Assembly: GCA_964487045.1 (NCBI GenBank)
Contig: CAZAOT010000001.1
Location: forward strand, 4,875-68,874
Direction: 5' to 3'
DNA length: 64,000 bases
Source: an uncultured Candidatus Saccharibacteria bacterium
Lineage (GTDB): Bacteria; Patescibacteriota; UBA1384; DTJR01
A program made the translations under genes and the position numbers. How positions within the stretch are numbered: position 1 is the first letter of the stretch; each line of letters opens with the position of its first letter. This document shows, piece by piece, positions 24,269 through 52,024 of this stretch. The notes beneath the pieces were generated by a model. It saw nothing but the letters and a program-made list of their open reading frames with translations. It was not told where the DNA came from and did not search any database.

Positions 24269-25675
24269 TTGAAACTTCGAGATTTGACTAGGGTTAGTAC
24301 GGCCGGTCAGCTTCATCATCTTCTGAGTAAGAAACGAACCCGCAATGAGAATGTCGAGCTGGGGGCTCTGCTCGAGAGTAATCTAGCGCTTGCCAGGCGA
24401 CTGGTCACCTTGGTGGCTGGCTCTGCTGACGCTAGTCTGGTCAAGATGTTCTCACCGATCTTCTGTCTGCTTTCGTCATCTTTGAGGGCGCAGATGATTG
24501 AGTCTTTCAAGCCGTTCAAGAGCAGAGAGTTTCTGTTCTTCGTCTCAAGTCTACCGGCCAAGGGGCTAAGGTACTTGATCAGGGCCCTCGATAAGATGTC
24601 GTCCGTTGACGACACGAGGTTTTGTCTCGGAAAGCTAGTCGTATCAGGCAATCCCGAATGGCCGGGTGTTATCGGCGAGGCTTTTTCGGACAAGGACCTT
24701 GACAGGTTGCGGGCGCGTGAGCCGATCTGTAGCGAACAATCAGAGGAATTCACTTCTCTACAGGCTATTACCTACATGATCGGTAGCTTGCTCTCAGCCA
24801 GCGTCATTCTTCTGCCGGTGTGTGGTCGGAATCCTCGACCCGAATACAACCTCGCTGGTTTCAAGCTGACAGAGATCAGGCCTCATGAGACATTGGTTAT
24901 GAATGGAGAGAAGTCTCAGAACCACTGGCTTCCTTGGGTATTTCAGACAGAGGAGGGAGTTGAGAAGGCGCTCCACTTACTCGAATTCCTCGTCGGCAGT
25001 CTGAGCCTCTGCGATCAGGGCAACGAGTTGCTCAACAGGATTGGTGACGATGCCGAAAGGATGCTGGTAGAGATCAGTGAGCGCTGGGAAGCAATCAAGA
25101 AAGGCGTGCATCGCTGGGTACTCCCAGATGGACAGATGAAGCTTCGGTTCGGAGGCGACTTTGTCTTCTGTGGCCTGATGGTGACAGAACTTCACCCCGG
25201 GAAGAAAGTACCCGAGATGACGGTCAGAATCGTACAGAATCGATTCGGTTACCTCAAGTTCAAGGATCGGCCTCTCGACGAGAATGGCCTTTTTAAGGAC
25301 ATGGACCTCGGTAAGCAGGTCGGACTGCTCGAACTTGGCATCAACCACAAGGTGGTCTGCTGGCTGGCTGATTACGCTTTGCGACCTTCAAACTACAAGC
25401 CAAAGAATGGTGAAGGCAAGAGTCTTGACCCGATCAAGGTCGCGTTTGGCGAAGGCAAGCTGCCTGCTGGGTTTCACCTTCCTGAGTATATGAATCTCCC
25501 GGACAAGATAAAGCAGAACGGCAAGCCTTACGAAGCCAGTGGCGATGCGAAGAAGCGCGCCGAAGCGCTGGGCTGGGCCGAGCCGACTGATGGTCAGACC
25601 TTTAGGATGTCGGGAGATCCTCTTAAGGAAGGCCTTGGCCTTCCGGAACCCCTCGACATCGTATATGATGTCTGA
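24269..25675 (+). CDS. hypothetical protein, G+C-rich orphan
   Basis: visibly G+C-rich relative to flanks; GGGAGGG Shine-Dalgarno 7 nt before TTG 24269 (MKLRDLTRV...); no recognisable domain. Confidence 0.5.
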   Translation: MKLRDLTRVSTAGQLHHLLSKKRTRNENVELGALLESNLALARRLVTLVAGSADASLVKMFSPIFCLLSSSLRAQMIESFKPFKSREFLFFVSSLPAKGLRYLIRALDKMSSVDDTRFCLGKLVVSGNPEWPGVIGEAFSDKDLDRLRAREPICSEQSEEFTSLQAITYMIGSLLSASVILLPVCGRNPRPEYNLAGFKLTEIRPHETLVMNGEKSQNHWLPWVFQTEEGVEKALHLLEFLVGSLSLCDQGNELLNRIGDDAERMLVEISERWEAIKKGVHRWVLPDGQMKLRFGGDFVFCGLMVTELHPGKKVPEMTVRIVQNRFGYLKFKDRPLDENGLFKDMDLGKQVGLLELGINHKVVCWLADYALRPSNYKPKNGEGKSLDPIKVAFGEGKLPAGFHLPEYMNLPDKIKQNGKPYEASGDAKKRAEALGWAEPTDGQTFRMSGDPLKEGLGLPEPLDIVYDV

Positions 25676-25692
25676 TATCTCTCTATCTCAAA

Positions 25693-25734
25693 GGGGCGCA
25701 CTGTCATCCGACAGGGCGCCCCTTCTCTTTTTTG
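25693..25734 (+). terminator. rho-independent terminator
   Basis: GGGGCGCACTGTC...GACAGGGCGCCCC stem then TTCTCTTTTTTG. Confidence 0.7.
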
Positions 25735-29638: not shown

Positions 29639-30804
29639 ACAGTAGGGTGGCCGTGCTTGGAGCGGGCCAGTTTGGCTTTGCTCTTGCTTGCCGATTGGCT
29701 CAAGGCGGGATAAAGACGGTTCTGTGGGGCCGTAGTCCGCATATTCTCAGCGGTCCGCGGGCAGTCTCACAGCGGTTCAGTGGTGGATCGCCGCCCCTTG
29801 GGCTTCAAGTTACTGGCGGATCAGGTCTTCCCAGCCTGGATGACTTTGACCTGGTCTTTGTCGCCACTGATTCTTCTGGACTCGCTGAGCTAGTCCCGAT
29901 GATCGCCCAGAGTGATATTGGCGATACGCCGGTTCTTCTTGTCCAGAAGGGTCTTGTGAATGGTGTCTCTCCCGTGGAATTCGCTAGCGCCGCCGGACTT
30001 AACGCCGGTTCGTTTACCGGCGCGGCCTTCGCAAGTGACATCTATCTCGGCTCTGAGGCGATGATGATCGTCGCAGCCGAGGACGTTACCCTCTGCATTA
30101 CAGTGATGGAGCTGCTTAAGCCCCTTAAGTTCTGGATAACTGCATGTAGTGATCCAGACGCGATCTGCGCTGCCAACGTAGCGCGAACGATCACCTCGAT
30201 CGAGATGGGTATTGTCAGCGGCTTCGCGGACTACTTGCAGCGCCAATCAAAGTATGCACTGGTGCCGCATAGGTCGCCTGACTTTACTCCAACCGAGATC
30301 GCGGCGGCCACCGCTAGCATCCAGTACGAGTGGCGGGTTGTCTCAGCGATGCTTAGTCCGGTGATTAACTCCTTGCTCTATCCAGAAGTAGTCTCGGATG
30401 ATGTTTCGATCGTGCGCAACATCAATCGCGAGCGCATTCTCAGGGTCCTTTCCGCTGACAACTACCTCTGCAGCGGGATGATACTCGACCGTAACGACAG
30501 GGGAGGAGATTCTCGGGTGACTCTGGGTCTTCCTCTCGCCACACCGGTCTCGCGCAACTGGCGGTTTGGCTATGCGCTTGGCTGCTGGCGTTATGTCCCG
30601 GATGCCATAAGGGCGGTTGCTGACCTTGGAGTGATCCAGGGGCAGCAGAACGCTCTTGATCTATACAAGCGGTTCGGTGCGAGCGCCCCGCCGTTTCTCA
30701 CCTCCCTTGGCCGAATCTTGACTGAAGTGTCAAAGGTCGAGGAGGAGATCCAGGTCATTCGCGATCGTCGCGATGCCTGGTATGAAAAGTACGCTTCTAG
30801 CTGA
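29635..30804 (+). CDS. divergent NAD(P)H-dependent glycerol-3-phosphate dehydrogenase (GpsA)-like protein
   Basis: VAVLGAGQFGFALACRLAQGGIKTVLWGRS matches GpsA N-terminus; region equivalent to GGAVKNVIAIGAG reads AANVARTITSIEMG (Lys to Arg); overlapping stop/start with upstream gene. Confidence 0.5.
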   Translation: MNSRVAVLGAGQFGFALACRLAQGGIKTVLWGRSPHILSGPRAVSQRFSGGSPPLGLQVTGGSGLPSLDDFDLVFVATDSSGLAELVPMIAQSDIGDTPVLLVQKGLVNGVSPVEFASAAGLNAGSFTGAAFASDIYLGSEAMMIVAAEDVTLCITVMELLKPLKFWITACSDPDAICAANVARTITSIEMGIVSGFADYLQRQSKYALVPHRSPDFTPTEIAAATASIQYEWRVVSAMLSPVINSLLYPEVVSDDVSIVRNINRERILRVLSADNYLCSGMILDRNDRGGDSRVTLGLPLATPVSRNWRFGYALGCWRYVPDAIRAVADLGVIQGQQNALDLYKRFGASAPPFLTSLGRILTEVSKVEEEIQVIRDRRDAWYEKYASS

Positions 30805-30823
30805 GCTATGCTCGGTCTTACAC

Positions 30824-30861
30824 GGGCTCCCGGAAGTTTTCCGGGAGCCCGTTTCTTTTTT
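30824..30861 (+). terminator. rho-independent terminator
   Basis: perfect 10-bp stem GGGCTCCCGG/CCGGGAGCCC, 7-nt loop, GTTTCTTTTTT tail. Confidence 0.75.
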
Positions 30862-36828: not shown

Positions 36829-37230
36829 ATATCGATTCTGCTATAATTAATCTGTACTAATTTTTCTGCAAAACATTTACTTCTGCGTGAAGTATCTCAA
36901 AAGAGGGGGCACCCCGATTAAATTTACATATTTAACGGGTCGAGGTGACGTACTTTTTTCGCCTAAAATCTGATAGGTAATCGTTCAGTCTCGCCTGGCA
37001 CCCTATTGCATAGCGCGATAGAACTATCACAAGTCTAACAACCTCTTTTTGCTCGCTTTGTTAAAGTCGAAATCATTTCTTTGGTTTTTACAAAGTAGAG
37101 CTAAGCGAAACCAGTCGCTATTATTAGTTTTTTGTTCGAAGGAGGGGAAAATTCGGCAATTGTTTTGTTAGTGATTTTTTTCATACTAATGAGTGGGCGG
37201 TAAGATTTTAAAAAATATTTAAACAAAAGA

Positions 37231-37264
37231 GGCGGGAGCGAAGGGGTTGCCCTTCGCTCCCGCC
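37231..37264 (-). terminator. rho-independent terminator for minus-strand small-protein operon
   Basis: 14-bp stem GGCGGGAGCGAAGG/CCTTCGCTCCCGCC; on minus strand followed by TCTTTTGTTTAAATATTTTTT. Confidence 0.65.
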
Positions 37265-37270
37265 GGGATG

Positions 37271-37423
37271 CTACGCGCTTTTCGCGCGCTTGATGTGGTA
37301 GGCGAGTGAGATGATGGCGCACACCCCACAGAAGAATGGGATTGCGCGTATGTGCTCACCTCCATAGGCCTCAATAAGGCCGCCAGTGACCAGCGATAGA
37401 ATCGAATAGCCCAGAAGACTCAT
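37271..37423 (-). CDS. small hydrophobic protein (50 aa), G+C-rich cassette
   Basis: ATG 37423 preceded by AGGAGTA; translation MSLLGYSILSLVTGGLIEAYGGEHIRAIPFFCGVCAIISLAYHIKRAKSA done by hand. Confidence 0.45.
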   Translation of the reverse strand: MSLLGYSILSLVTGGLIEAYGGEHIRAIPFFCGVCAIISLAYHIKRAKSA

Positions 37424-37433
37424 CGTGATACTC

Positions 37434-37709
37434 CTATTCTAATCCCAGAGTTGCTCCGCCGGCAAAGCGGCGTTCTGTTTCAGCGAGGAGAGCCTTTCCC
37501 TCGATCGTCACCATGTTGTCCGACATGATTCCTTGCTTGTCTGGACAAATGATGAGTTCTGCTTCGCCTGTCAGTCTGACTTCAGCGGAACTCGTTTCCG
37601 CTATCTCGACAAAAAGAGGTGGCTCGTGTGAGCCAGACTTATTCTTCAGACAGACCCAGATACGCGAGCCGACAGGTTGGCGCCTGAGGTCGAAGAAGTT
37701 TAGCTTCAC
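37434..37709 (-). CDS. small soluble protein (91 aa), G+C-rich cassette
   Basis: GTG 37709 preceded by GAGGAGGTAG; GTGA overlap with upstream gene stop; MKLNFFDLRRQ...GATLGLE. Confidence 0.4.
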   Translation of the reverse strand: MKLNFFDLRRQPVGSRIWVCLKNKSGSHEPPLFVEIAETSSAEVRLTGEAELIICPDKQGIMSDNMVTIEGKALLAETERRFAGGATLGLE

Positions 37710-37927
37710 GCTACCTCCTCGCTTGACGCTTCGGCTGTTTCTTCTCTTCTTCCTCTGAACGAAGAGATGATGGCAAGGCCGCCACAGAAGATGCAATTGC
37801 CGCTTGCGAGGAGAGTCACTGAGACTGGCACGTCCTGCTTGATGTAGAGAATACCGAGCAGGACAAGTCCCATGGCGATTAGTCCGAGACCGCTAAGGAT
37901 CAGGCTTATATCCGGTTTGTATTTCAT
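37706..37927 (-). CDS. small membrane protein (73 aa), G+C-rich cassette
   Basis: ATG 37927 preceded by AAAGGGAAAG; two TM helices (LILSGLGLIAMGLVLLGILYI, CIFCGGLAIISSF). Confidence 0.45.
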   Translation of the reverse strand: MKYKPDISLILSGLGLIAMGLVLLGILYIKQDVPVSVTLLASGNCIFCGGLAIISSFRGRREETAEASSEEVA

Positions 37928-37942
37928 TGGTGCTTTCCCTTT

Positions 37943-38077
37943 CTAGCGCGTGAATGCGAACTGGGGAAGGTGCTGCCAGGCGAGAGCAATGGCAGCACAG
38001 AAGATGATCACTAGTCCTACCAAGGCGAGGTAGGCCGGCAGATTGTGCCTTTCTGATTCTAGGAATCTTAGTCGCAT
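37943..38077 (-). CDS. small membrane protein (44 aa), G+C-rich cassette
   Basis: ATG 38077 preceded by GGGAGAGGGAT; MRLRFLESERHNLPAYLALVGLVIIFCAAIALAWQHLPQFAFTR. Confidence 0.4.
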   Translation of the reverse strand: MRLRFLESERHNLPAYLALVGLVIIFCAAIALAWQHLPQFAFTR

Positions 38078-40184: not shown

Positions 40185-40225
40185 ATCTCTGTACAGGCCA
40201 CAAGGCCGTGCAAGGAGTGAGAACA

Positions 40226-40846
40226 TTGTCTAAGGTCAACAGTATCCAGCTCACGTGTCTCAAGCCGAATGACTGTTCCACCCGACTTGCTCTTCCCGAA
40301 GTCACCTACGACTTTCGGGTGTGGGCTATCATCAACGACCTTGAGAAGGCCGTTGAGAAGGCGGGCGGTGCAACGCTCGCAGTCTTCGCGGGTGTTCCGT
40401 GGGAGTACGGGAGCCGCTCGGTCAACTTTCTCAACTATGTGGCCGAGATGGTGGTGAGAACAAACCGCGGCAAAGGGGAATTCATCGGAAGAAGCTATCT
40501 TGCGAGTGGCGGGATGTCACGGCTCGCAAGCTTGATGAAGGACGTTCGGCCAGACGGACAGATCAGAGCTGTGGTCGACCAAATCACGCGAACAATCTGG
40601 TCCGACCAGCCGATCCCGCGCGGTTTGCCCGACAATCTCTGGTACGAGCAGACGGACTACGAGTCGTTCTGCATCAAGTCGGGCAAAGGTGACATCATCA
40701 GGTGGGTTCCCGAGAATCAAGTTCAGGAGGAGCGGACGATGGGATTTCTCCGCTTGGAGTTTGAGGAGCCCTCTGTCAAGCACTTCTGTCAGCTAATTCA
40801 ACAGCTACATCGCTTTCCGGGTGTGGCCGAGTTCGCCAACGGCTAG
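40226..40846 (+). CDS. hypothetical protein, G+C-rich cargo of IR2 cassette
   Basis: AGGAG 8 nt before in-frame TTG 40226 (MSKVNSIQLTCLKP...); no recognisable domain; composition contrasts with A+T-rich recombinase gene. Confidence 0.5.
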   Translation: MSKVNSIQLTCLKPNDCSTRLALPEVTYDFRVWAIINDLEKAVEKAGGATLAVFAGVPWEYGSRSVNFLNYVAEMVVRTNRGKGEFIGRSYLASGGMSRLASLMKDVRPDGQIRAVVDQITRTIWSDQPIPRGLPDNLWYEQTDYESFCIKSGKGDIIRWVPENQVQEERTMGFLRLEFEEPSVKHFCQLIQQLHRFPGVAEFANG

Positions 40847-40869
40847 CTGTAGACCGGAGTACAAGCAAC

Positions 40870-40899
40870 AGGCAGACCAGCAGTGGCCTGCCTTTTTTC
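40870..40899 (+). terminator. possible rho-independent terminator
   Basis: AGGCAGACC...GGCCTGCCT imperfect stem then TTTTTTCTTG. Confidence 0.4.
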
Positions 40900-42305: not shown

Positions 42306-42717
42306 CTTTCTTACTAAATTGTAGCAAAAATTCTGATAAGTAAATACCTTTTAAAATTTTGATTATTATGCTTGCTTTAGCGTGGTTTATCTGGTAAAAA
42401 ATGCATATCACGACCATGTTCGAAGGATGGTGAGCAGATGGCCAGGCATATGAGTTGGCGTAAAGGTGGTCGGGCGAGACCCAAGAGGTGTCACCGAGAG
42501 CAACCGGGTCACCCCGATCCGCAAGGTGCCCAGTGGCGTCACGAACGGTACATCGAGCAGATGCGCGCAAGCCTGAAGCCGGGACAGCTTGAGGCCCTTC
42601 AGGCGCTCAGCCACGGTTACCACAGGTACCGATGAACCACGAGCGCAGTCGTATCCAGAGTCTCAAGCTGGTCTTGTACCGGCGCGAGACTCTTCTTCTT
42701 TAATGATTGATTTTCCG

Positions 42718-43750: not shown

Positions 43751-44179
43751 ATGTGTAAGAAACTGATATTTGCTAGTACGCTGGCACCGAAACTCTACTG
43801 CTTGTGCACACCGAGTGAGGAGTTGCTGGAGGTCTTGCTTGAGCGTGCCAAGGACGATGAGTGTCGCGCCGAGCCACTTATGGTGGCCGAACAGGAGATC
43901 GAGTTCGGGCCAGCCAACTATCTTTATGACGAGGCCCGCATGCGCGTCTGTGAGGCTAGTGCAGGCATGGCTACGGTCATGATCCAGGTCGGTAGTCATG
44001 CTGATGGAATTCGATCAGTGCTTGTGCCTGTTGGCGAGAAGGAGGGTGATGACGAAGCCCTGCCTGAAGGGGCTTTGATGCCAGGTATCGGTTGCCCGAT
44101 GGAATGTCTGCTGGGCCTGGGGCTGTTTTGTCTCGTGATCAAAGGCGGCATTTGCGCCGTCCATTATCTGCTCGGCTAA
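43751..44179 (+). CDS. hypothetical cysteine-rich protein with hydrophobic C-terminus, G+C-rich cassette
   Basis: GAGGAGAG SD before ATG; 142 aa with CxC, C-rich C-terminal segment GIGCPMECLLGLGLFCLVIKGGICAV. Confidence 0.45.
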   Translation: MCKKLIFASTLAPKLYCLCTPSEELLEVLLERAKDDECRAEPLMVAEQEIEFGPANYLYDEARMRVCEASAGMATVMIQVGSHADGIRSVLVPVGEKEGDDEALPEGALMPGIGCPMECLLGLGLFCLVIKGGICAVHYLLG

Positions 44180-44200
44180 TGGCCGGGAGGGGAGTACAGC

Positions 44201-44512
44201 ATGTCTTTGTTTGGCAAAAAGGGAGAGCCGAAGCCGCCTAAGGTGAGGAAGGAGCGCAAGCCGCGCGCTCCGATCACCAAGGAGCGAGTCTTTGAAGGGT
44301 TGTTGGCTTTTGGCCGCAACCTGTTGCTGGTAGTGACCGTCGTAGGCATCTTGGCGCTCTCGGCGCTCGTCTACGTCCTGTTCCAGAAGATCGGCGGCGG
44401 CAGTAGCGACCCAGCAACGAAGAACCTGATTCTCGTCGCGACTGCGATGACGGCCGGAGGCGGCTTTTTCACGCTCTGGCTCGGCCGCACCTGGGGCATC
44501 ATCCCGTACTAG
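44201..44512 (+). CDS. small membrane protein with lysine-rich N-terminus, G+C-rich cassette
   Basis: 103 aa; KPPKVRKERKPRAP then two TM helices. Confidence 0.45.
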   Translation: MSLFGKKGEPKPPKVRKERKPRAPITKERVFEGLLAFGRNLLLVVTVVGILALSALVYVLFQKIGGGSSDPATKNLILVATAMTAGGGFFTLWLGRTWGIIPY

Positions 44513-44535
44513 GGCTGATGCCTGCGAGCATCTTT

Positions 44536-44576
44536 GGCGGTTTGTCCGGTCACCCGGACAAACCGCCTTCTTTTTT
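44536..44576 (+). terminator. rho-independent terminator
   Basis: perfect 14-bp stem GGCGGTTTGTCCGG/CCGGACAAACCGCC, loop TCAC, TTCTTTTTT tail. Confidence 0.8.
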
Positions 44577-45321: not shown

Positions 45322-47427
45322 TCAGAGAGCTGGCCAGGAAGCGTCGATGAGCATTTTGCTCTCTCGTTGCTCCTCGGGTAGCTCTTGCCAACATGCTTCA
45401 GTTACAAACGGCATGTATGGGTGAAGCAATTTCAAGCTTGTTTTCAATATTTTTGTAAGCTTTAAGAGAGACGTCTTTTTTTCTCGTTCATCGCCGCCAT
45501 AAAGACGTTTCTTTTCCTGCTCTATAATCTTATCAGCAAACTCATGCCAAATATAAGCGTACAAATGTTCGCCTGCTTGTGAAAATTTAAACTCATCGAT
45601 CAGTTTTGTAACTTCTGAAGTAACCTTATCCAGATTCTCTATATCTTTTTTATCTTGATCTGAAAAATTAGATTCCTCAGTATCAATTTCAATATTTTCC
45701 AGATTTGTTACTACAAATCTGGCAATATTCCAAATCTTGTTTGAAAAATTACGATACCCTCTGATTTTGCTTTCACCAAGGGCTATATCCTGACCTGCGG
45801 TAGTTCCGACAATCAAGGAATATCTCAGGGCGTCGGCGCCGTATTTTTCGATAATATCTATTGGATCAATCACGTTGCCAAGAGATTTGGACATCTTGCG
45901 ATTCTTTTCGTCCCTTACGAGGCCATGCAGGTAAACAGTCTCAAAAGGAGCTTTGCCTGTCAGCTCTAATCCCATCATGATCATCCTGGCGACCCAGAAA
46001 AACAAGATGTCATAACCTGTTTCCATGACTGTTGTTGGGTAGAAGTTCTTGTAATCTTCAGCATCTTTGTCTGGCCAGCCAAGAGTGGAGAATGGCCAAA
46101 GTCCACTTGAGAACCAAGTATCGAGTACATCTTCTTCTTGCACCCAGCCGTCACCCTCGGGAGCTTTTTTGCCAACATAAATTTCTTCTCCCTTATACCA
46201 AACCGGAATTTGGTGGCCCCACCAGAGTTGGCGCGAGATACACCAGTCGCGTATATTATCCATCCAATGGAAGTAAACTTTTTCAAAACGCTTTGGCATA
46301 ATTTTGATCTCGCCTGACTCCACCGTTTTTTTGGCTTTCTCGGTGAGTGGTTTCATCTTTACGAACCATTGCTTTGATGGAATTGGTTCAATTTGACCAC
46401 CGCAGCGGTAACAAGTGGCTATATTATGTTCGTAATTTTCTTCAATATGATCGATTAGACCCATTTTCTGCATATCTTCGACAATTGCTTCGCGAGCCTC
46501 CTTGGTCTTCATGCCGGTATATTTACCGGTGTTCTCCATCATGCGGCCGTTTTCGTCTATCACTTGTTTAAGTGGAATATCGTTGCGCTGAGCAATTTCA
46601 AAATCAACCAAGGAGTGAGCAGGGGTAACCTTGATCGCACCTGTGCCGAATTTTGGGTCGACGGCGTTATCAGCGACGACAACAATTTCAAAATCTCCCA
46701 GTACTCCCGGAATCATAAATTTCTTGCCAACCATATCCTTATATCTCTTATCGGTTGGGTGAACGGCGACTGCAGTGTCGCCAAGCTTTGTCTCTGGTCT
46801 AGCGGTAGCTAAGGTAAATGGACCATATTTAATCCAGTAGAATTTGCCAACTTCTGGTTTGTGCTCAACTTCATCATCGGCAATTGCGGTGTGGCAGCGG
46901 GGGCACCAGTTAACTGTGCGCAGCCCCTGATAAATAAGTCCCTTATCGTATAAATTTACAAATGCTTCTTTGACTGCTTCGGATAGTCCCTCGTCTAGGG
47001 TAAAGCGTTCTCTTGTCCAGTCACAGGAAGCACCAAGTTTTCTAATTTGAGAGGTGATAGTATTGCCGTATTCTTCTTTCCATTGCCAAACTCGCTCCAC
47101 AAACTTTTCACGTCCTAAGTCGTGTCGCCTCAAACCTTCTTTGGAAAGTTGCTTTTCGACAACATTTTGAGTGGCGATGCCAGCGTGGTCAGTTCCGGGA
47201 AGCCAAAGAGTTGGTTCTCCCCTCATGCGATGGTAGCGAGCCATAATGTCCTCGAGCGTTACGTACATACCATGGCCGATATGAAGTTTGCCGGTCACGT
47301 TTGGCGGAGGCATCGAAATAACAAAAGGTTTTTTACCTTCTTCTATTTTTGGAGTGAAGGATCCGCTATCTTCCCATTTTTTATATATTTCGTCTTCAAA
47401 AACTTTGTGGTTGTAAGCCTTATCCAT
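45322..47427 (-). CDS. valS: valyl-tRNA synthetase, short form
   Basis: PPPNVTGKLHIGHG (class I HIGH, ValRS-type PPPNVTG) and KMSKS; about 700 aa, lacks long C-terminal coiled coil. Confidence 0.75.
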   Translation of the reverse strand: MDKAYNHKVFEDEIYKKWEDSGSFTPKIEEGKKPFVISMPPPNVTGKLHIGHGMYVTLEDIMARYHRMRGEPTLWLPGTDHAGIATQNVVEKQLSKEGLRRHDLGREKFVERVWQWKEEYGNTITSQIRKLGASCDWTRERFTLDEGLSEAVKEAFVNLYDKGLIYQGLRTVNWCPRCHTAIADDEVEHKPEVGKFYWIKYGPFTLATARPETKLGDTAVAVHPTDKRYKDMVGKKFMIPGVLGDFEIVVVADNAVDPKFGTGAIKVTPAHSLVDFEIAQRNDIPLKQVIDENGRMMENTGKYTGMKTKEAREAIVEDMQKMGLIDHIEENYEHNIATCYRCGGQIEPIPSKQWFVKMKPLTEKAKKTVESGEIKIMPKRFEKVYFHWMDNIRDWCISRQLWWGHQIPVWYKGEEIYVGKKAPEGDGWVQEEDVLDTWFSSGLWPFSTLGWPDKDAEDYKNFYPTTVMETGYDILFFWVARMIMMGLELTGKAPFETVYLHGLVRDEKNRKMSKSLGNVIDPIDIIEKYGADALRYSLIVGTTAGQDIALGESKIRGYRNFSNKIWNIARFVVTNLENIEIDTEESNFSDQDKKDIENLDKVTSEVTKLIDEFKFSQAGEHLYAYIWHEFADKIIEQEKKRLYGGDEREKKTSLLKLTKILKTSLKLLHPYMPFVTEACWQELPEEQRESKMLIDASWPAL

Positions 47428-47495
47428 AGGTTTAATATTAGCGCAATTCAAGGAGAAAACAAGATGAAACTGTGAAAGCTGGAAGCAATTAGTGA

Positions 47496-47524
47496 TTGAC
47501 TAATTATTACTCTTGAGCTATATT
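47496..47524 (+). promoter_or_regulatory. sigma70-type promoter TTGACT-N17-TATATT
   Basis: -35 47496-47501, -10 47519-47524, 17-nt spacer; followed by GCCCC-TTAT-GGGGC leader hairpin. Confidence 0.5.
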
Positions 47525-47575
47525 TTCAGGATTGAGTGCCCCTTATGGGGCCCAAAGGACATTGAGGTGATGGCG

Positions 47576-48730
47576 ATGCGAATCGGCATGTTCACTTTGA
47601 CTTATGGAAGGTCTAACGGCGTGGCCGTCTCCGTCGCCAATCTGAGCCGCGCGCTTCGCGAAGCCGGCCATGAAGTTCATATCTTCGGGCCAAGCGGTGT
47701 GGCGGATACAGACGAATTCTACCATCCGTTCGTGACGGTGCGATTTCCCCAGGCTCCGGACTATCCGGTGCCAATACCGAACTTCCTGCGTGCTCTCAAG
47801 ATAGCGCGTCGGTACAATCTTAAGCTTATGCACACTCACCATCCTTGGCTGCTCGGCAGTGATGCGGTGAGGGTGGCGCGCGAGCTGGAGGTGCCGGTAG
47901 TTTCCACGGTGCACACTCAGTATGATTTCTACTCCGAGCTTTTCCCGTGGATTCCGAGCAAATGGAAGCGCAAAGCGCTGCATTGGGTGCTCAGGCGTCA
48001 CCTCTGCAGTGTCGATCTGGTGACGACGCCGGGCATTGGTTCCAAGGCGCGCCTGGATGACATGCAGCTGACTACGCCGGTTCGTCTCGTCACCAACGGC
48101 ACCGACCTGTCGCTCTTCGGGTATGGCGGCGCCAACGAAATCAGACGCCAGCTCAGAATTCCGGAAGGCGCCCAGGTCTTCGGCTATGTTGGCCGGTTCG
48201 ATCCCGAAAAAGATCTCGGCACCCTGATCGATGCGGCGGCTAAAGTGTTCAAATGGCATCCGCGAGCCGTGCTGCTCATGGTCGGCGACGGTAAAGAGCG
48301 CGAATCGCTCGAGTGGAAATCCAAACCGCTCGGCAACCGAGTCATCTTCACCGGCCGAATTGCCCACGAGCAAATCGCGCCCTACTACAGCGCGATGGAT
48401 ATCTTCGTCACGCCGAGTAGGTTCGAGGTTCAGCCGATGACCATCGCCGAAGCGTTTGCCAGCGGTTTGCCGGTCGTTGCTTTGGATGTGCCTGGCAGCG
48501 AGATGGTCCATCACGGCTACAACGGCCTGCTCGTGGATCCAGCCCAACCGGTAAGCGCCCTGGCTCGAGGAGTCAGTCAGATCTTTAGCGACCCATTCCG
48601 ACATCTGACGCTACAGGGCCACGCCAGAGAGTCGGCGCGGCAGTACGAAACCGCCGAAGCTTTGTCACAGATGCTCAGTGCCTACCAAGACGCCGGCTAC
48701 TTCTGCCGCACTCGTCAGTCGTCCGTCTAA
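47576..48730 (+). CDS. GT4 family glycosyltransferase (GT-B), G+C-rich xenologue of the adjacent gene
   Basis: aligns by eye with 48804-49958 product (VHTQYDFYSELFPWIP vs VHTQYDLYAKLIPLPQ; VDLVTTPGIGSKARL vs VDLVTTPGEGSKQRL; EVQPMTIAEAFASGLPVV vs EVQPMTFAEAMATGTPIV); start ATG 47576 with GAGG 8 nt upstream. Confidence 0.65.
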   Translation: MRIGMFTLTYGRSNGVAVSVANLSRALREAGHEVHIFGPSGVADTDEFYHPFVTVRFPQAPDYPVPIPNFLRALKIARRYNLKLMHTHHPWLLGSDAVRVARELEVPVVSTVHTQYDFYSELFPWIPSKWKRKALHWVLRRHLCSVDLVTTPGIGSKARLDDMQLTTPVRLVTNGTDLSLFGYGGANEIRRQLRIPEGAQVFGYVGRFDPEKDLGTLIDAAAKVFKWHPRAVLLMVGDGKERESLEWKSKPLGNRVIFTGRIAHEQIAPYYSAMDIFVTPSRFEVQPMTIAEAFASGLPVVALDVPGSEMVHHGYNGLLVDPAQPVSALARGVSQIFSDPFRHLTLQGHARESARQYETAEALSQMLSAYQDAGYFCRTRQSSV

Positions 48731-48746
48731 CAAGTAATGGTTCCGT

Positions 48747-48778
48747 GGCCGGAGGTTCGCCTCCGGCCTGTTTTTTTT
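48747..48778 (+). terminator. rho-independent terminator
   Basis: GGCCGGAGG-TTCG-CCTCCGGCC then TGTTTTTTTT. Confidence 0.75.
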
Positions 48779-48803
48779 GAAAAAAGGTTCTACAATTAGG
48801 GTG

Positions 48804-49958
48804 ATGAAGATCGCAATTTTTACTAATACCTATTGGCCAACTGTAAATGGCGTAGCTGTTTCGGCGACTAATTTGCGCGAAGGACTCATTCAGCTTGGAC
48901 ATGAGGTTTTTATCTTTGCGCCAGACGACGAAGATTTGAAGAAGTTGAAAGAACAGGCTAACGTTTATCGCTATCCATCTTTCAATATTAAAGAAATTGC
49001 TGATTATGAATTGGCGCTTCCGTCCTTGAAGATTAATGAAGTTTTAGATAAAAATTCCTTTGATATCGTGCACAGCGAACATCCGCTCTGGATAGGAAAG
49101 TGGGGGATGAATTATGCCAAAAAAACCAATACCCCGATTATTACAACCGTTCATACTCAGTACGATCTCTACGCCAAATTAATACCGCTACCCCAGGGAA
49201 TTTTGGTACCAATTTTACATAAAAATCTTAATCGATATTTAAATAATGTTGATTTAGTGACGACTCCAGGGGAGGGATCGAAGCAAAGGCTGATTGAGCA
49301 AGGAGTGAAGACGCCGATCAGGGTGGTTTCAAACGCGACCGATCTCAGTAGGTACTGGAAGGCCAAAGGAGATAAGGTACGCCGTGAGCTGACTAACAAT
49401 AATGAGAAATTGATTGGGTTTGTCGGGCGGCTATCGAAGGAAAAAGACGTTTCTGTCTTACTTGATGCAATGAATCTTATTTTAAATAAAATGCCTGATA
49501 GTAAGCTCATTTTGATTGGTGATGGTCCGGATAGAAAAGAGCTCGAGGAAAAAGCCAAAACTATTTCAAACAAAATTGTTTTTCTTGGCAAAATTGATCA
49601 TAAACAAATCCCTGATTATTATGCCTCCTTTGATATTTTTCTCTCGGCTAGCCAGTCGGAGGTTCAGCCAATGACTTTTGCCGAAGCGATGGCAACCGGT
49701 ACGCCGATTGTTGTTTTTAATGTTGCTGGTTGTAATGATATGGTGAAAAATCGCGAGAATGGACTATTGATTGACCCTAAAAAGGGCGCCCAGGGATTGG
49801 CAGATGCGGTGACAAAGATTTTAGTAAACGAAAAAGAGTTAAAAAAATTAAGCTCTCAGGCTAGAAAATGGGCCAGCCGCTATGATCTGATGACGGCGAC
49901 CAAAGATATGGTTGAAGCCTATGAGCAGGCAATCAAGATTCACTCAAACAAGAACTAA
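48804..49958 (+). CDS. GT4 family glycosyltransferase (GT-B), A+T-rich native copy
   Basis: MKIAIFTNTYWPTVNGVAVS N-terminus and E-x7-E region typical of GT4 retaining transferases (resembles diacylglycerol alpha-glycosyltransferases by eye). Confidence 0.65.
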   Translation: MKIAIFTNTYWPTVNGVAVSATNLREGLIQLGHEVFIFAPDDEDLKKLKEQANVYRYPSFNIKEIADYELALPSLKINEVLDKNSFDIVHSEHPLWIGKWGMNYAKKTNTPIITTVHTQYDLYAKLIPLPQGILVPILHKNLNRYLNNVDLVTTPGEGSKQRLIEQGVKTPIRVVSNATDLSRYWKAKGDKVRRELTNNNEKLIGFVGRLSKEKDVSVLLDAMNLILNKMPDSKLILIGDGPDRKELEEKAKTISNKIVFLGKIDHKQIPDYYASFDIFLSASQSEVQPMTFAEAMATGTPIVVFNVAGCNDMVKNRENGLLIDPKKGAQGLADAVTKILVNEKELKKLSSQARKWASRYDLMTATKDMVEAYEQAIKIHSNKN

Positions 49959-51079
49959 ATACCTAGCCCAATTGCTGTTTTGGCTTCCTTTAGAGTTTCC
50001 TGCGCATCGGGGGCGACTTTTGAAGCGCCGTCCGAGAGAATTTTTTTGAGGTTTTCTTTATCGGCAATCAGTTCGTTAAATTTTTCTCTAACTGGCTTTA
50101 ACTCGGCGATGACTGCTTCTGCCAAGGCCTCTTTGAATTCGCCATAGGTTTTGCCTTCAAATTCTTTTTCAATTTCGCTAATTTCCCGGCCGGTAACCCC
50201 GGAAAAAATATTAAGTAGATTGGTGATAGCAGGTTTATCTTCTCCAGCTTTGATTTCATTTCCAGAATCTGTGACCGCTTTTTTAATCTTGGTTCTAATC
50301 GTCTTATCATCATCAGTTATAGCAATGTAATTTGCGGGTGATGGGGCTGATTTTGACATTTTCTTTTTAGGATCATCAAGTCCCATAATTCTAGCGGTTT
50401 CTTTGCGGATTAAAGGTTCTGGAACGGTAAAGATTTGCCCATATTTATTATTAATTCTTTGGGCAATATCTCGGGTTATCTCAATATGTTGTTTTTGATC
50501 TTCGCCGACCGGAACTTGATCGGTTTGGTAAAGCAAGATATCAGCGGCCATGAGCGCTGGGTAGTCAAAAAGGCCAACTGAACTTATATCGTAGGATTTA
50601 CGTTCGGATTCTTCTAGGATATTTTTTGCAAGGTCTATTCTCTTTTCATTATTATCTTGTAATTCTTTTAGCTGTTCGGGTGAATTTATTTTATCGACTA
50701 ATCTTTTTATGACATTATCTGAAATTCTGTCTCTTATTTCACTCGATTTTTCCTTAAATTGGGTCATGCGGTTAAGCTCACCCATATAGGTATGGCAATT
50801 TAAAATCCAAGCTAGTTCGGAGTGCTCGGGACGGTCAGACTGAACAAAAATTGTTGATTTATTGGGGTCGATGCCAGAAGCAATATAGAGTGCGGCGACT
50901 TCTAGTGTCTTTTCTTTTAAAACTTTTGGATCTTGGGGAACGGTAATTGCATGCAGATCGACGATGCAAAAGATGCACTCGGCTTCATCTTGAACCTTGG
51001 CCCATTGCTTAAGTGCCCCTAAATAATTTCCTAAATGTAGGTTGCCCGACGGCTGTACGCCGGAAAAGATTTTTTTCAT
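49955..51079 (-). CDS. trpS: tryptophanyl-tRNA synthetase
   Basis: GVQPSGNLHLGNYLGA (HIGH-type) and KMSKS; 374 aa. Confidence 0.75.
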   Translation of the reverse strand: MKKIFSGVQPSGNLHLGNYLGALKQWAKVQDEAECIFCIVDLHAITVPQDPKVLKEKTLEVAALYIASGIDPNKSTIFVQSDRPEHSELAWILNCHTYMGELNRMTQFKEKSSEIRDRISDNVIKRLVDKINSPEQLKELQDNNEKRIDLAKNILEESERKSYDISSVGLFDYPALMAADILLYQTDQVPVGEDQKQHIEITRDIAQRINNKYGQIFTVPEPLIRKETARIMGLDDPKKKMSKSAPSPANYIAITDDDKTIRTKIKKAVTDSGNEIKAGEDKPAITNLLNIFSGVTGREISEIEKEFEGKTYGEFKEALAEAVIAELKPVREKFNELIADKENLKKILSDGASKVAPDAQETLKEAKTAIGLGI

Positions 51080-51244: not shown

Positions 51245-51538
51245 ATGAAACTAGCATTTGTCCGCACTGAGAAGGGCTGGCAGCGAGGTTACTTCAGCGG
51301 AAGGATGCTGGTCGTAGGAGACAGCAAGCCAATCTCTGAAGTAGAGGCCAGAAGGCAGCTCAGCTTGCCAGGGGAAACGATCGTCAAGGTGATCGTTTCA
51401 GACCAAGTCTTTCGCGCCTATGACGTACTGATGAGACGGGACGATATGAAACCGGAGCAGGTCCAAATGGGTCTGCTGCCAAAGCCTGACAAACCCCGAA
51501 GAGGGTGCTTGATGTGGTTTCTTCCGCGCCATCATTGA
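51245..51538 (+). CDS. hypothetical protein, G+C-rich
   Basis: 97 aa; SD GGGTAGGTGA before ATG; no motif. Confidence 0.35.
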   Translation: MKLAFVRTEKGWQRGYFSGRMLVVGDSKPISEVEARRQLSLPGETIVKVIVSDQVFRAYDVLMRRDDMKPEQVQMGLLPKPDKPRRGCLMWFLPRHH

Positions 51539-51553
51539 TCCCGAATCTTACAA

Positions 51554-51592
51554 GGGACGCTCCGCCTTGTGCGGTACGTCCCTTTTCCTTTT
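51554..51592. terminator. possible bidirectional terminator between convergent G+C-rich genes
   Basis: GGGACG...CGTCCC stem followed by TTTTCCTTTT; A-run on the other side. Confidence 0.35.
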
Positions 51593-51648
51593 AAAAGTAA
51601 AACGCCCCCCGGACCGTTGGCTCGGGGCATGAGGTTGGCTGGCCGGTG

Positions 51649-51924
51649 CTACTTCTTCTTTGGCCACGCCGGGCAGAGGACGAAGGCAAGCAAGGTGAAT
51701 CCGAGCGCGATGGGCGTTCCGAGGAACGCCCAGGCGACCCCGCTCCATCCCCAGATGGCTCCGGCTGTGACGCACCACCCGATCCATCCGGCGATCCCGA
51801 TGACAAGGGTCCAGAGAATCTTGTCGCCGGCATGGCGGATCCTGGGACAACTTAGGCCGATGAAGACAGCGGCCAAGAGCAATCCCCCTCCAACCGAAAT
51901 CAATGCGGGTACCATCGCACCCAT
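51649..51924 (-). CDS. small membrane protein, G+C-rich
   Basis: 91 aa, three TM helices rich in Trp/Gly; SD AAAGGATGG. Confidence 0.4.
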   Translation of the reverse strand: MGAMVPALISVGGGLLLAAVFIGLSCPRIRHAGDKILWTLVIGIAGWIGWCVTAGAIWGWSGVAWAFLGTPIALGFTLLAFVLCPAWPKKK

Positions 51925-52024
51925 CCTTTCTGTTCTGTTGCCAGATTGTCAAAACGCGATCTGGATATACTAACTCAAGGACAGCTATATTGCAAGCGTA
52001 TGGTTTCGATAATATAGTCGGTTT

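What the first reader, a model, noticed from the sequence alone, without database searches (positions are those of the whole stretch)
47496..49958. Tandem GT4 glycosyltransferase homologues with sharply contrasting base composition
The two adjacent genes encode collinear GT4 proteins, and many blocks align by eye. The upstream copy is G+C-rich with its own consensus promoter, leader hairpin and terminator. The downstream copy matches the host A+T-rich composition.

Tandem GT4 paralogues that make mono- and di-glycosyl-diacylglycerol are known in Acholeplasma and Streptococcus. Here the pair looks like a native gene plus a xenologous copy inserted precisely beside it.
Basis: seen in the sequence. 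Interest (0 to 1): 0.65.

Follow-up and report, generated by a model that had tools for sequence, protein, structure and literature searches.

The report
GC-rich fast-evolving glycosyltransferase gene cassette
Two neighbouring sugar-transferase genes really do differ sharply in base composition, but the G+C-rich one is not a fresh foreign insert: it is an old, self-contained cassette that stays G+C-rich and evolves unusually fast across a group of related uncultured bacteria, and it is one of many such islands in their A+T-rich genomes.

Summary
Two collinear GT4 genes, "up" (47570-48730) and "dn" (48804-49958), share 38% identity (E 7e-93). Up has 59.0% GC and dn 40.7%. Up has its own promoter-like site, 5' hairpin and strong terminator.

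The reading "native gene plus recently inserted xenologue" is only partly right.
- **The cassette is old and shared.** The same GC-rich cassette, with homologous promoter, leader and terminator, sits after ValRS in at least seven other related assemblies.
- **No donor exists.** In 1.84 billion representative proteins, no hit other than up itself exceeds 43% identity to up.
- **The contrast is not a relic.** Fourfold sites between these genomes are near saturation, yet up keeps GC3 at 0.63-0.71 and dn at 0.37-0.47.
- **Up diverges fast.** Up counterparts are 36-51% identical, against 64-86% for dn and 65-89% for ValRS.

The window holds eight such islands (56.8% GC against 40.1%). Five have GC-rich counterparts at the same position in relatives, and four are shown there to be hyperdivergent or unrecognisable. 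Islands from different genomes share a dinucleotide signature.

Best reading: small flexible-gene cassettes at fixed hotspots, held GC-rich by an unidentified cassette-confined bias. The enzymes are GT4 glycolipid-synthase-like, with acceptors unknown.

The parts
47496..47524 (+). Promoter-like site of the up cassette (-35 TTGACT, 17 nt, -10 TATATT)
   Evidence: The -35 ATTGAC and the -10 region are conserved in the window, L004, L160, L161 and L164 and in L167.
47530..47569 (+). 5' leader. It has an invariant GATTG, a stem-loop at 47538-47551 (GCCCC/GGGGC), a CAA...TTG box, and the Shine-Dalgarno GAGGTG at 47564-47569.
   Evidence: The hairpin sits at the same place with different sequence in six genomes. 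In a five-sequence alignment, 5 of 6 pairs show a double change. The motif GATTG-N12-28-CAANGCTCNT occurs only at up cassettes among 167 loci, apart from one hit that is probably chance.
47570..48730 (+). Up: the GC-rich GT4 glycosyltransferase (386 aa; alternative start at 47576)
   Evidence: Pfam. GC 0.59 and GC3 0.70. AlphaFold model pLDDT 94.3 with a two-domain GT-B fold. Foldseek top hits are MshA, BshA, PimA and SPS. The EX7E motif EVQPMTIAE is read.
48747..48778 (+). Intrinsic terminator of up (9-bp GC stem, TTCG loop, T8)
   Evidence: Homologous GGCCGG...CCGGCC terminators follow up in L003, L004, L160, L164 and L167. L161 has a GGCCGA...TCGGCC variant.
48791..48796 (+). TACAAT box 7 nt before the dn ATG. 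It is probably the dn -10 element, and the mRNA may be leaderless.
   Evidence: TACAATTA is conserved before dn in the window, L003, L081, L006 and L080. Function is inferred, not shown.
48804..49958 (+). Dn: the AT-rich GT4 glycosyltransferase (384 aa), the resident copy
   Evidence: Orthologues are 86%, 73% and 64% identical in L003, L160 and L004. It occurs as the single copy in L081, L006 and L080.
45322..47451 (-). ValRS, the conserved AT-rich left flank, transcribed divergently from up
49955..51079 (-). TrpRS, the conserved AT-rich right flank
24335..25722 (+). GC-rich island with a 488-aa ORF of unknown family. The positional counterpart in L165 (453 aa, GC 0.55) shows no detectable similarity.
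27901..30851 (+). GC-rich island holding the PlsY-fusion gene (27869-29638) and a GpsA-like gene (29635-30804)
   Evidence: It is syntenic and GC-rich in L165 and L166. Identity there is 46% and 62% for the PlsY fusion and 29% and 26% for the GpsA-like gene, against 60-87% for most AT-rich neighbours (a HIT-domain gene at 35% is the exception).
43779..44567 (+). GC-rich island with two small ORFs (43751-44179 and 44201-44512, the second with two TM-like segments)
   Evidence: A GC-rich segment sits at the same position in L160 and L161, with no detectable protein similarity.
51260..51926 (.). GC-rich island after TrpRS, with convergent small genes 51245-51538 (+) and 51649-51924 (-, three TM-like segments)
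   Evidence: The counterpart in L003 is 51% identical over 77 aa. None is detectable in L004 although an island is present there.
37229..38049 (.). GC-rich island with small ORFs, next to tRNA-Arg. Synteny in relatives was not tested.
40194..40892 (+). GC-rich island with a 212-aa ORF and no family hit. Synteny in relatives was not tested.
42409..42692 (.). Short GC-rich island (61% GC) with no convincing ORF or RNA family

Best explanation
**What is there.** Dn is the resident GT4 glycosyltransferase of an uncultured AT-rich bacterial lineage. Up is a second GT4 that forms its own transcription unit, with promoter, 5' stem-loop leader, coding sequence and strong terminator. It was placed once directly against the dn promoter.

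**Age and spread.** That event is old. The cassette, with the same regulatory frame, is shared by at least eight related genomes. Since then it has been kept, lost, or has outlived dn in different lineages.

**The base-composition contrast.** The high G+C of up is a maintained state, not the residue of a recent foreign origin. Up belongs to a class of small cassettes (eight in this window) that sit at fixed positions between conserved AT-rich genes. These cassettes share a common ~57% GC dinucleotide signature across genomes. They diverge much faster than their neighbours, or turn over in gene content.

**Most likely mechanism (inferred, not shown).** These are flexible-gene hotspots whose contents circulate by recombination within this lineage. 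A bias confined to the cassette favours G/C variants against the genome's A/T-biased mutation. This tug-of-war raises substitution turnover. The leading candidate for the bias is GC-biased gene conversion tied to frequent recombination. Selection on the transcript is the close second.

**Function (inferred).** Both proteins are retaining GT-B enzymes closest to diacylglycerol glucosyltransferases. They probably glycosylate a membrane lipid acceptor, either in sequence or as alternatives.
For: **Shown.**
- The pair and its signals are confirmed.
- Independent assemblies reproduce the junctions.
- A GC-rich up (GC 0.55-0.59, GC3 0.63-0.71) lies after ValRS in L003, L004/L005, L160, L161, L164 and L167, in backbones of 40-47% GC.
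- The promoter is conserved, with an invariant GATTG, a covarying hairpin, the CAAnGCTCnTTG box and GGCCGG...CCGGCC terminators.
- The L003 and L167 terminators are 88% identical over 82 nt, while the proteins are 43% identical.
- The dn TACAATTA box is shared with dn-only genomes. The up terminator occupies the place of their -35 box.
- No homologue other than up itself exceeds 43% identity in 1.84 billion representatives. The best hits are the dn clade and other up genes. No viral contig carries it.
- Fourfold-site identity is 0.35-0.47 even for the closest pair, so the GC3 contrast is at equilibrium.
- Up-to-up identity is 36-51% among genomes with known context. It is 36-66% when up-type proteins from short contigs are added. 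This compares with dn 64-86%, ValRS 61-89% and TrpRS 68-78% by BLASTP.
- There are eight islands in the window, and relatives have islands at matching positions.
- GC-rich positional orthologues have median identity 39%, against 69% for AT-rich ones (Mann-Whitney p 5e-6). Some are unrecognisable.
- Islands of different genomes have delta* of 25-57 to each other, but 125-260 to their own backbone.
- Backbone genes give conflicting relationships, so recombination among lineages is common. The up tree conflicts with ValRS.
- The up model has pLDDT 94.3 with a GT-B fold, and catalytic motifs are kept in all up proteins.

**Established knowledge.** Recombining bacterial genes have higher GC3 (PMC4450053).
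Against: **Unresolved origin.** The origin of up is not settled. The NJ tree has weak deep support. HMM scores slightly favour a GC-rich Armatimonadota-like clade over the dn clade, which may be a composition effect.

**Against gene conversion.**
- The GC boundary is sharp, under about 50 bp. Dn, only 30 nt downstream, is wholly AT-rich. A regional recombination effect would be expected to blur this.
- The GC3 gap of about 0.28 is larger than I recall (own knowledge) being reported for bacterial gene conversion. No magnitude was read from PMC4450053.

**No direct measurements.** No population data were available, so neither recombination nor a fixation bias was measured.

**Limits of the sample.**
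- Not every GC-rich gene is hyperdivergent. The PlsY fusion is 62% identical in L166, against 68% for GH1.
- One AT-rich gene (a HIT-domain gene, 35%) is also divergent.
- Only five of the eight islands could be checked in relatives.
Confidence: 0.5

Rival explanations
1. Recent xenologue. A GT4 gene from a GC-rich donor was recently inserted beside the native gene and has not yet ameliorated.
For: Up has atypical composition at all three codon positions. It is self-contained, with its own promoter and terminator. It abuts the dn promoter. HMM scores are marginally higher against a GC-rich clade.
Against: The orthologous cassette is present in at least seven other related assemblies that differ at near-saturated synonymous sites. 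No homologue other than up itself exceeds 43% identity among 1.84 billion representatives, a library that should cover the runs that yielded this genome. There are no integrase genes, repeats or tRNA genes at the borders.
Confidence: 0.04
2. Selection at the transcript level. These particular mRNAs are selected to be G+C-rich and structured, for example for stability, with a 5' stem-loop and a 3' hairpin. Composition therefore follows the transcription unit, and the conflict with A/T-biased mutation speeds up turnover.
For: The island edges coincide with the transcript edges. Promoter spacers inside multi-gene islands are AT-rich. Every cassette examined has a hairpin after the promoter and a strong terminator. 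GC-rich genes fold more stably than their synonymous-codon shuffles in 9 of 9 cases, with z from -1.3 to -5.3. AT-rich genes give z from -1.2 to +1.3.
Against: The excess structure is modest and diffuse, and it is equally present on the antisense strand. No precedent known to me shows selection of this size on GC3 of single bacterial genes. This reading does not explain gene-content turnover in the islands or the conflicting trees.
Confidence: 0.22
3. Targeted hypermutation. A lineage-specific mechanism directs G+C-biased mutation to these cassettes, for example a retroelement-like or deaminase-like diversifier.
For: The coding sequence diverges faster than its own non-coding frame. Islands share a signature across genomes. 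Adenine on the coding strand is strongly depleted.
Against: There is no template/variable repeat pair. The only repeat is a 71-bp, 76% match to dn at the EX7E region. No reverse transcriptase was found among the window ORFs scanned. T at third positions falls as much as A, so there is no strand-specific signature. Catalytic motifs are retained.
Confidence: 0.07
4. Repeated import from an unsampled GC-rich pool. The fixed positions are landing pads, and unrelated GC-rich genes keep arriving from a host, plasmid or virus that has not been sequenced.
For: Counterpart islands can hold unrelated or unrecognisable genes, such as the 488-aa against the 453-aa ORF. L165 and L166 carry extra pyrC-like and pyrD-like genes. 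The island upstream of the TPR gene also differs between genomes. The islands share a common signature.
Against: Up, the PlsY fusion and their regulatory frames are specific to this lineage. No viral contig carries up. PHROGs gives no hits at E 0.01 for nine of the ten island proteins scanned, and only one weak hit of unknown function for the tenth. No donor-like homologue was found for the two island proteins that were searched.
Confidence: 0.12

Closest known systems
Tandem GT4 membrane-glycolipid synthases: A. laidlawii alMGS/alDGS, S. pneumoniae Spr0982/CpoA, E. faecalis BgsB/BgsA
   Same: Two adjacent, collinear GT4 (GT-B, EX7E) paralogues. The best full-length NCBIfam match for both is alpha-monoglucosyl-DAG synthase. 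The adjacency of bgsA/bgsB and the role of cpoA are described in PMC3083329 and PMC3901891, seen only as titles and abstracts. The remaining details are from my own knowledge.
   Different: Scores are far below the equivalog cut-off: 175 and 106 bits against 400. The two genes are separated by a strong terminator rather than forming a plain operon. Relatives manage with either gene alone (L081 and L006 have dn only; L161 and L167 have up only). A fixed two-step pathway is therefore not required. The base-composition contrast has no counterpart in those systems, as far as I know.
Laterally acquired genes with atypical composition, including phage 'morons' (promoter-gene-terminator units) and 'fast-lane' evolution of transferred genes
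   Same: A single gene with its own promoter and terminator, with composition unlike its neighbours and accelerated protein evolution. This comparison rests on my own knowledge of the literature.
   Different: The cassette is not in a prophage. It is conserved at one site across related genomes whose synonymous sites are near saturation. No donor exists. Its composition has not ameliorated, and it is G+C-richer than the genome rather than A+T-richer, as flexible genes usually are.
Surface-polysaccharide loci (O-antigen, capsule) with hyperdivergent glycosyltransferase alleles between conserved flanks
   Same: Glycosyltransferase alleles far more divergent than the flanking genes, atypical GC, a fixed chromosomal site, and signs of exchange between lineages.
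   Different: Here it is a single gene rather than a locus, and G+C is higher rather than lower than the genome. The same pattern covers PlsY, GpsA-like, pyrC-like and pyrD-like genes and small membrane-protein genes. These are not obvious targets of antigenic selection.
GC-biased gene conversion in recombining bacterial genes (Lassalle et al. 2015, PMC4450053)
   Same: GC is raised, most strongly at third positions, in particular genes of a genome whose mutation is A/T-biased. Codon-usage selection does not explain it.
   Different: The GC3 gap here, about 0.28, is larger than I recall from that literature (own knowledge; no magnitude was read from the paper). The boundaries are sharp and follow gene limits. 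Recombination in these cassettes has not been measured.
Diversity-generating retroelements
   Same: Hypervariation of a coding sequence inside a conserved frame, in a kind of bacterium where such elements are common (own knowledge).
   Different: There is no template repeat, no reverse transcriptase in the window, no adenine-specific pattern, and the whole gene is affected rather than a ~100-bp region.

Membership tests
GT4 retaining glycosyltransferases (Pfam Glyco_transf_4 + Glycos_transf_1) | N-terminal Glyco_transf_4 and C-terminal Glycos_transf_1 domains above the gathering scores | tested here: met
   Up scores 96.9 and 115.1 bits, and dn scores 96.5 and 139.1 bits. The cut-offs are 28.5 and 26.4.
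GT4 retaining glycosyltransferases (Pfam Glyco_transf_4 + Glycos_transf_1) | GT-B fold (two Rossmann-like domains) | tested here: met
   The up model has pLDDT 94.3 and pTM 0.90. Foldseek finds MshA, BshA, PimA and SPS at E 1e-18 to 1e-22. Dn was not modelled. By sequence it hits BshA and PimA.
GT4 retaining glycosyltransferases (Pfam Glyco_transf_4 + Glycos_transf_1) | EX7E motif in the C-terminal domain | tested here: met
   Read from the sequences. Up has EVQPMTIAE and dn has EVQPMTFAE. The motif is invariant in ten up-type proteins.
GT4 retaining glycosyltransferases (Pfam Glyco_transf_4 + Glycos_transf_1) | Glycosyl transfer with retention of configuration | not testable with these tools
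   This needs an enzyme assay.
alpha-Monoglucosyldiacylglycerol synthase (NCBIfam NF049988 equivalog) | Whole-protein score at or above the curated cut-off (400 bits) | tested here: not met
   Dn scores 175.1 bits and up 106.2 bits. It is the best full-length match for both, but far below the cut-off.
alpha-Monoglucosyldiacylglycerol synthase (NCBIfam NF049988 equivalog) | UDP-glucose:1,2-diacylglycerol glucosyltransferase activity | not testable with these tools
   JGI names several relatives '1,2-diacylglycerol 3-alpha-glucosyltransferase'. This is automatic annotation only.
Recently acquired genomic island or xenologue | A closer homologue in a donor lineage than in relatives of the recipient | tested here: not met
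   The best hits other than up itself are 39-43% identical. They are the dn clade and positional counterparts in related genomes.
Recently acquired genomic island or xenologue | Absence from the same site in related genomes | tested here: not met
   Up is present after ValRS in L003, L004, L160, L161, L164 and L167. It is absent in L081, L006 and L080.
Recently acquired genomic island or xenologue | Atypical base composition | tested here: met
Recently acquired genomic island or xenologue | Mobility signatures at the borders (integrase, tRNA, direct repeats) | tested here: not met
   The flanks are ValRS and dn. There are no repeats and no tRNA at this island.
Diversity-generating retroelement target | Template/variable repeat pair differing at adenines | tested here: not met
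   The only repeat is a 71-bp, 76% match between up and dn at the EX7E region.
Diversity-generating retroelement target | Reverse transcriptase gene nearby | tested here: not met
   No RT domain was found among about 40 window ORFs scanned. Not every ORF was scanned, and only 64 kb is visible.
Recombination hotspot with GC-biased gene conversion | GC3 raised relative to the rest of the genome | tested here: met
   GC3 is 0.61-0.70 in the island genes, against about 0.35-0.45 in backbone genes.
Recombination hotspot with GC-biased gene conversion | Excess recombination in the region | tested here: inconclusive
   The up, ValRS, TPR and TrpRS relationships conflict. The sequences are saturated and there are few taxa.
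Recombination hotspot with GC-biased gene conversion | A/T-to-G/C variants segregating at higher frequency than G/C-to-A/T variants | not testable with these tools
   This needs read-level population data.

The most novel reading that the evidence does not exclude
A whole lineage of uncultured AT-rich bacteria keeps a defined set of self-contained transcription units permanently G+C-rich and hyper-evolving. The set includes lipid-synthesis genes such as this GT4, a PlsY fusion and a GpsA-like gene. The cause would be a dedicated mechanism confined to the cassette: targeted G+C-biased mutation or conversion, or strong selection on the transcripts. That would amount to a second, stable compositional compartment inside a small bacterial genome.
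Probability: 0.15. Interest if true: 0.85.

Novelty: new variant of a known kind. Interest (0 to 1): 0.55.

Why it matters
Atypical base composition is routinely read as evidence of recent horizontal transfer. Here that inference fails. The contrast has persisted across related genomes whose synonymous sites are near saturation, no donor exists, and the G+C-rich genes are the fastest-diverging ones.

If the pattern holds genome-wide, this lineage offers a natural test of what maintains G+C heterogeneity within bacterial genomes. Mutation, gene conversion and selection make different predictions, and existing metagenomic reads could check them.

It also matters for annotation. The G+C-rich genes include very divergent versions of lipid and pyrimidine enzymes that fall far below curated family thresholds. 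Pathway inventories for such organisms may therefore wrongly score these steps as absent.

Tried and rejected
- **Assembly chimera.** Rejected. Two independent Logan assemblies are identical across both junctions, and the same architecture appears in other projects.
- **Donor search.** A word-indexed search, an exhaustive HMMER search and a viral contig scan found no candidate donor.
- **DGR-like mechanism.** Rejected. There is no repeat pair, no RT in the ORFs scanned, and no adenine-only signature.
- **Avoidance of a nuclease or restriction motif.** Counts of 3- to 5-mers against synonymous shuffles showed ordinary context biases and no missing word.
- **Known RNA families.** Rfam found nothing for the leader or for the 42409-42692 island.
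- **Phage or defence origin of island ORFs.** PHROGs gave no hits at E 0.01 for nine of ten island proteins, and only one weak hit of unknown function for the tenth. PADLOC was not run.
- **Duplication versus ancient transfer.** An NJ tree with bootstrap and clade HMM scores could not decide. No maximum-likelihood or composition-aware tool was available.
- **Covariance model of the leader.** Not built, because MAFFT put the hairpins out of register. A pattern search was used instead.
- **Automatic reciprocal-best-hit table.** It mis-paired up with dn, so positional orthologues were tabulated by hand.
- **Naming the organism.** This failed. Cluster look-ups carry no names, and the genome is not among the GTDB species representatives that were scanned.
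- **Literature.** Searches found no description of this pattern.


Full report
**1.
The region contains two same-strand ORFs. I call them up (ATG 47570, or 47576, to 48730) and dn (ATG 48804 to 49958). They align end to end at 38% identity over 379 residues, with 11 gapped positions and E 7e-93. Both carry the two GT4 domains far above Pfam thresholds.

Up has 59.0% GC, with GC1/2/3 of 0.63/0.44/0.70. Dn has 40.7%, with 0.48/0.32/0.42. The flanking ValRS and TrpRS genes have 43.2% and 39.9%. A two-state HMM places the GC-rich segment at 47534-48770, which is from just after the -10 box to the end of the terminator stem.

The promoter-like site (TTGACT-17-TATATT, 47496-47524), the leader hairpin (47538-47551) and the terminator (48747-48778, -20.2 kcal/mol, z -3.2) are all present. 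Taken alone, the promoter and hairpin matches are no better than chance. Their reality rests on conservation in relatives, described in section 4.

The junctions are not an assembly artefact. Logan contigs from two separate runs are 100% identical to window 46393-49469 and 44682-50352.

**2. What the proteins are.**
The best full-length NCBIfam match for both is alpha-monoglucosyl-diacylglycerol synthase. The scores are 175 bits for dn and 106 bits for up, far below the 400-bit equivalog cut-off.

An AlphaFold model of up is confident (pLDDT 94.3). It has the two-domain GT-B fold and matches MshA, BshA, PimA and sucrose-phosphate synthase. The EX7E motif is intact in both proteins, and the catalytic motifs are invariant across ten up-type proteins.

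Both are therefore functional-looking GT4 enzymes of the diacylglycerol-glycosyltransferase type. The acceptor and the sugar remain unknown.

**3. The pair is shared by relatives, and so is the contrast.**
Context look-ups of homologues gave related contigs from other projects: L003, L004/L005, L160, L161, L164 and L167. In every one, a GT4 gene with 55-59% GC and GC3 of 0.63-0.71 lies directly after ValRS. The backbone in each is 40-47% GC.

| Gene content at the site | Genomes |
|---|---|
| up and dn | window, L003, L004, L160, L164 |
| up only | L161, L167 |
| single AT-rich dn-type gene | L081, L006, L080 |

Identities between genomes by BLASTP are as follows.

| Gene | Identity between genomes |
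|---|---|
| dn | 64-86% |
| ValRS | 61-89% |
| TrpRS | 68-78% |
| up (genomes with known context) | 36-51% |
| up-type (adding proteins from short contigs) | 36-66% |

The window's up is the most derived, at 36-42% to every other up-type protein.

**4. The cassette has one origin and was set against the dn promoter.**
The up genes share a promoter (an ATTGAC -35 box and a conserved -10 region). They also share an invariant GATTG, a stem-loop whose sequence differs but whose pairing is kept, a CAAnGCTCnTTG box and a Shine-Dalgarno site. In the five-sequence alignment, 5 of 6 hairpin pairs show double changes.

Their terminators nearly all have the form GGCCGG...CCGGCC; L161 has a GGCCGA...TCGGCC variant. 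The leader motif occurs only at up cassettes among 167 fetched loci, apart from one hit that is probably chance.

These non-coding parts are better conserved than the coding sequence. The L003 and L167 terminators are 88% identical over 82 nt, while the proteins are 43% identical.

Dn carries a TACAATTA box 7-10 nt before its ATG. The box is shared with the dn-only genomes. Those genomes have a proper -35 box (TTGAGA or TTGCTA) at the place where the up terminator's T-tract lies in the window and in L003.

It also shows that the event is shared, not recent.

**5. No donor exists.**
A search of 5.8 billion proteins found nothing closer than 40% to up, apart from up itself. An exhaustive HMMER search of 1.84 billion representatives found the dn-clade representative as the best hit (274 bits, 40%). 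It was followed by the up genes of L004 and L167. The up gene of L003 came lower in score, at the highest identity found (43%). No viral contig carries the gene.

An NJ tree resolves the dn clade with 100% support, but it leaves the up genes on long, poorly supported branches. Clade HMM scores slightly favour a GC-rich Armatimonadota-like clade over the dn clade. Shared amino-acid composition could cause that. Duplication versus ancient transfer is therefore unresolved.

**6. The contrast is an equilibrium, not a relic.**
Fourfold-degenerate sites are 35-47% identical even between the window and L003 in dn. Chance identity for this composition is about 0.29 by my own estimate. Neutral sites have therefore largely turned over, yet up stays at GC3 0.63-0.71 and dn at 0.37-0.47 in every genome. 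Simple slow amelioration cannot explain this.

**7. Up is one of a class.**
The window has eight GC-rich segments totalling 8.8 kb at 56.8% GC, against a 40.1% backbone. None is an rRNA or tRNA gene. They hold:
- a PlsY fused to an acyl-ACP-reductase-like domain;
- a GpsA-like gene;
- ORFs of 488 and 212 aa with no family hit;
- several small membrane-protein genes.

Five of the eight could be checked against relatives. All five have a GC-rich counterpart at the same position. Four were compared protein by protein in relatives:

| Island gene | Identity to positional counterpart |
|---|---|
| PlsY fusion | 46% (L165), 62% (L166) |
| GpsA-like | 29% (L165), 26% (L166) |
| 488-aa ORF against 453-aa ORF | none detectable |
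| small membrane protein after TrpRS | 51% (L003); none detectable in L004 |

For comparison, AT-rich neighbours are mostly 60-87% identical, with one exception at 35%. For the fifth, the island upstream of the TPR gene, the window's two ORFs find no match in L160 or L161.

Over all positional orthologues, the median identity is 39% for GC-rich genes and 69% for AT-rich genes (p 5e-6). L165 and L166 carry additional GC-rich, very divergent pyrC-like and pyrD-like genes that the window lacks.

Islands from different genomes have nearly the same dinucleotide signature (delta* 25-57). They differ from their own backbones (delta* 125-260).

**8. Tests of mechanism.**
- **Strand asymmetry.** Adenine on the coding strand is depleted, but T at third positions falls as much. 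There is no strand-specific signature.
- **Repeats.** No template/variable repeat pair exists.
- **Reverse transcriptase.** No RT domain was found in the ORFs scanned.
- **Missing words.** No short word is missing.
- **Promoter spacers.** Inside multi-gene islands these are AT-rich, so composition tracks the transcribed or coding segments.
- **RNA structure.** GC-rich genes fold more stably than their synonymous shuffles in nine of nine cases (z -1.3 to -5.3). AT-rich genes do not. The effect is diffuse and also appears on the antisense strand.
- **Recombination.** Backbone genes give conflicting relationships. ValRS between L081 and L006 is 70% identical, but the TPR gene is 90%. L161 (up only) and L006 (dn only) are each other's closest ValRS relatives. 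Recombination among these lineages is therefore frequent.

**9. Interpretation.**
*Shown:*
- the pair and its signals;
- the shared, single-origin cassette;
- the absence of a donor;
- the persistence of the contrast past near-saturation;
- the wider class of GC-rich, fast-diverging islands.

*Inferred:*
- The islands are small flexible-gene hotspots whose contents circulate within the lineage.
- They are held G+C-rich by a bias that acts only inside the cassette and opposes A/T-biased mutation.

I rank gene conversion linked to recombination first. It is a known process in bacteria (PMC4450053), and recombination is evident here. Selection on the transcript is a close second, because the edges are sharp and RNA structure is in excess. 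Import from an unsampled pool comes next, and targeted hypermutation after that. A recent xenologue is last.

None of the first four can be excluded without population data. The overall model gets confidence 0.5. The negative conclusion, that this is not a recent identifiable xenologue, deserves about 0.9.

**10. Function.**
Relatives carry either gene alone, so a strict two-step pathway is not required. The two enzymes may act in sequence, as in the Acholeplasma, Streptococcus and Enterococcus pairs. PMC3083329 and PMC3901891 were seen as titles and abstracts, and the further details are from my own knowledge. Alternatively, they may make alternative glycolipids.

The strong terminator and dn's own -10 box suggest that the two genes are expressed separately.

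**11. Caveats.**
- The related contigs are short (2-18 kb).
- Only five of the eight islands were checked in relatives.
- The phylogeny used NJ on saturated data.
It resembles members of the candidate phyla radiation in gene content, which is an inference only.
- I found no description of this pattern in the searchable literature. That is not proof that none exists.

Noticed in passing
window 27869-29638: PlsY (a multi-TM acyltransferase) is fused to a ~350-aa Rossmann domain. That domain weakly resembles acyl-ACP reductase and the N-terminal part of PigE. The search of 5.8 billion proteins returned only eight hits, all apparently from this lineage or very distant. In two of them the C-terminal domain stands alone.
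   Followed up: partly
window 29635-30804; L165 11745-12815; L166 2121-3089: A GpsA-like gene overlaps the PlsY fusion by 4 bp. It is only 26-29% identical to its positional counterparts and scores 39-67 bits against GpsA models whose cut-offs are 200-450 bits.
   Followed up: partly
L165 12966-13940; L166 3215-4640: The relatives' islands carry extra GC-rich genes that the window lacks at this position. They are very divergent, dihydroorotate-dehydrogenase-like and dihydroorotase-like.
   Followed up: no
window 38245-39902: A large serine recombinase (531 aa, minus strand) abuts tRNA-Arg(GCG). GC-rich islands at 37229-38049 and 40194-40892 lie on either side. This may be an integrated element.
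   Followed up: no
window 48791-48806; L003, L081, L006, L080 upstream of dn: A conserved TACAATTA box lies only 7-10 nt before the dn start codon, which suggests a leaderless mRNA. In the window and in L003 the usual -35 position is occupied by the up terminator.
   Followed up: partly
L081, L006, L161 and window (ValRS, TPR, TrpRS genes): Neighbouring backbone genes give conflicting relationships. ValRS between L081 and L006 is 70% identical but the TPR gene is 90%. ValRS of L161 is closest to L006. This indicates a mosaic backbone shaped by recombination.
   Followed up: partly
window GC-rich genes against AT-rich genes: GC-rich genes have lower folding energy than synonymous-codon shuffles (z -1.3 to -5.3 in 9 of 9 genes). 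AT-rich genes do not. The effect is diffuse and also seen on the antisense strand.
   Followed up: partly
window 471-23195: A long AT-rich cluster for nucleotide-sugar and glycan synthesis. It includes RmlA/B-like genes, PseB/PseC-like genes, NeuB, a Wzx-like flippase, an acyltransferase and GT2 genes. It contains no GC-rich island.
   Followed up: partly
window 52712-63063: Two giant predicted surface proteins of 1967 and 1487 aa, with Laminin_G_3, fn3 and DUF2341 domains. They are AT-rich, and the first is 75% identical to its L004 counterpart. Size and surface exposure alone therefore do not give the GC-rich, fast-diverging pattern.
   Followed up: no
L004 3286-5604; L081 3084-3455: Lineage-specific insertions at the same locus. 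L004 has a 772-aa ORF with no family hit between dn and TrpRS. L081 has a 123-aa ORF between ValRS and its single GT4.
   Followed up: no
window 42409-42692: A 284-bp segment at 61% GC with no convincing ORF and no Rfam match. Its folding energy is no better than shuffles.
   Followed up: partly
P0008, P0009, P0012 (Logan contigs of 1.26-1.32 kb): Three further up-type genes, 57-66% identical to each other and to L004 up, lie on contigs barely longer than the gene. Their flanks were not examined.
   Followed up: no
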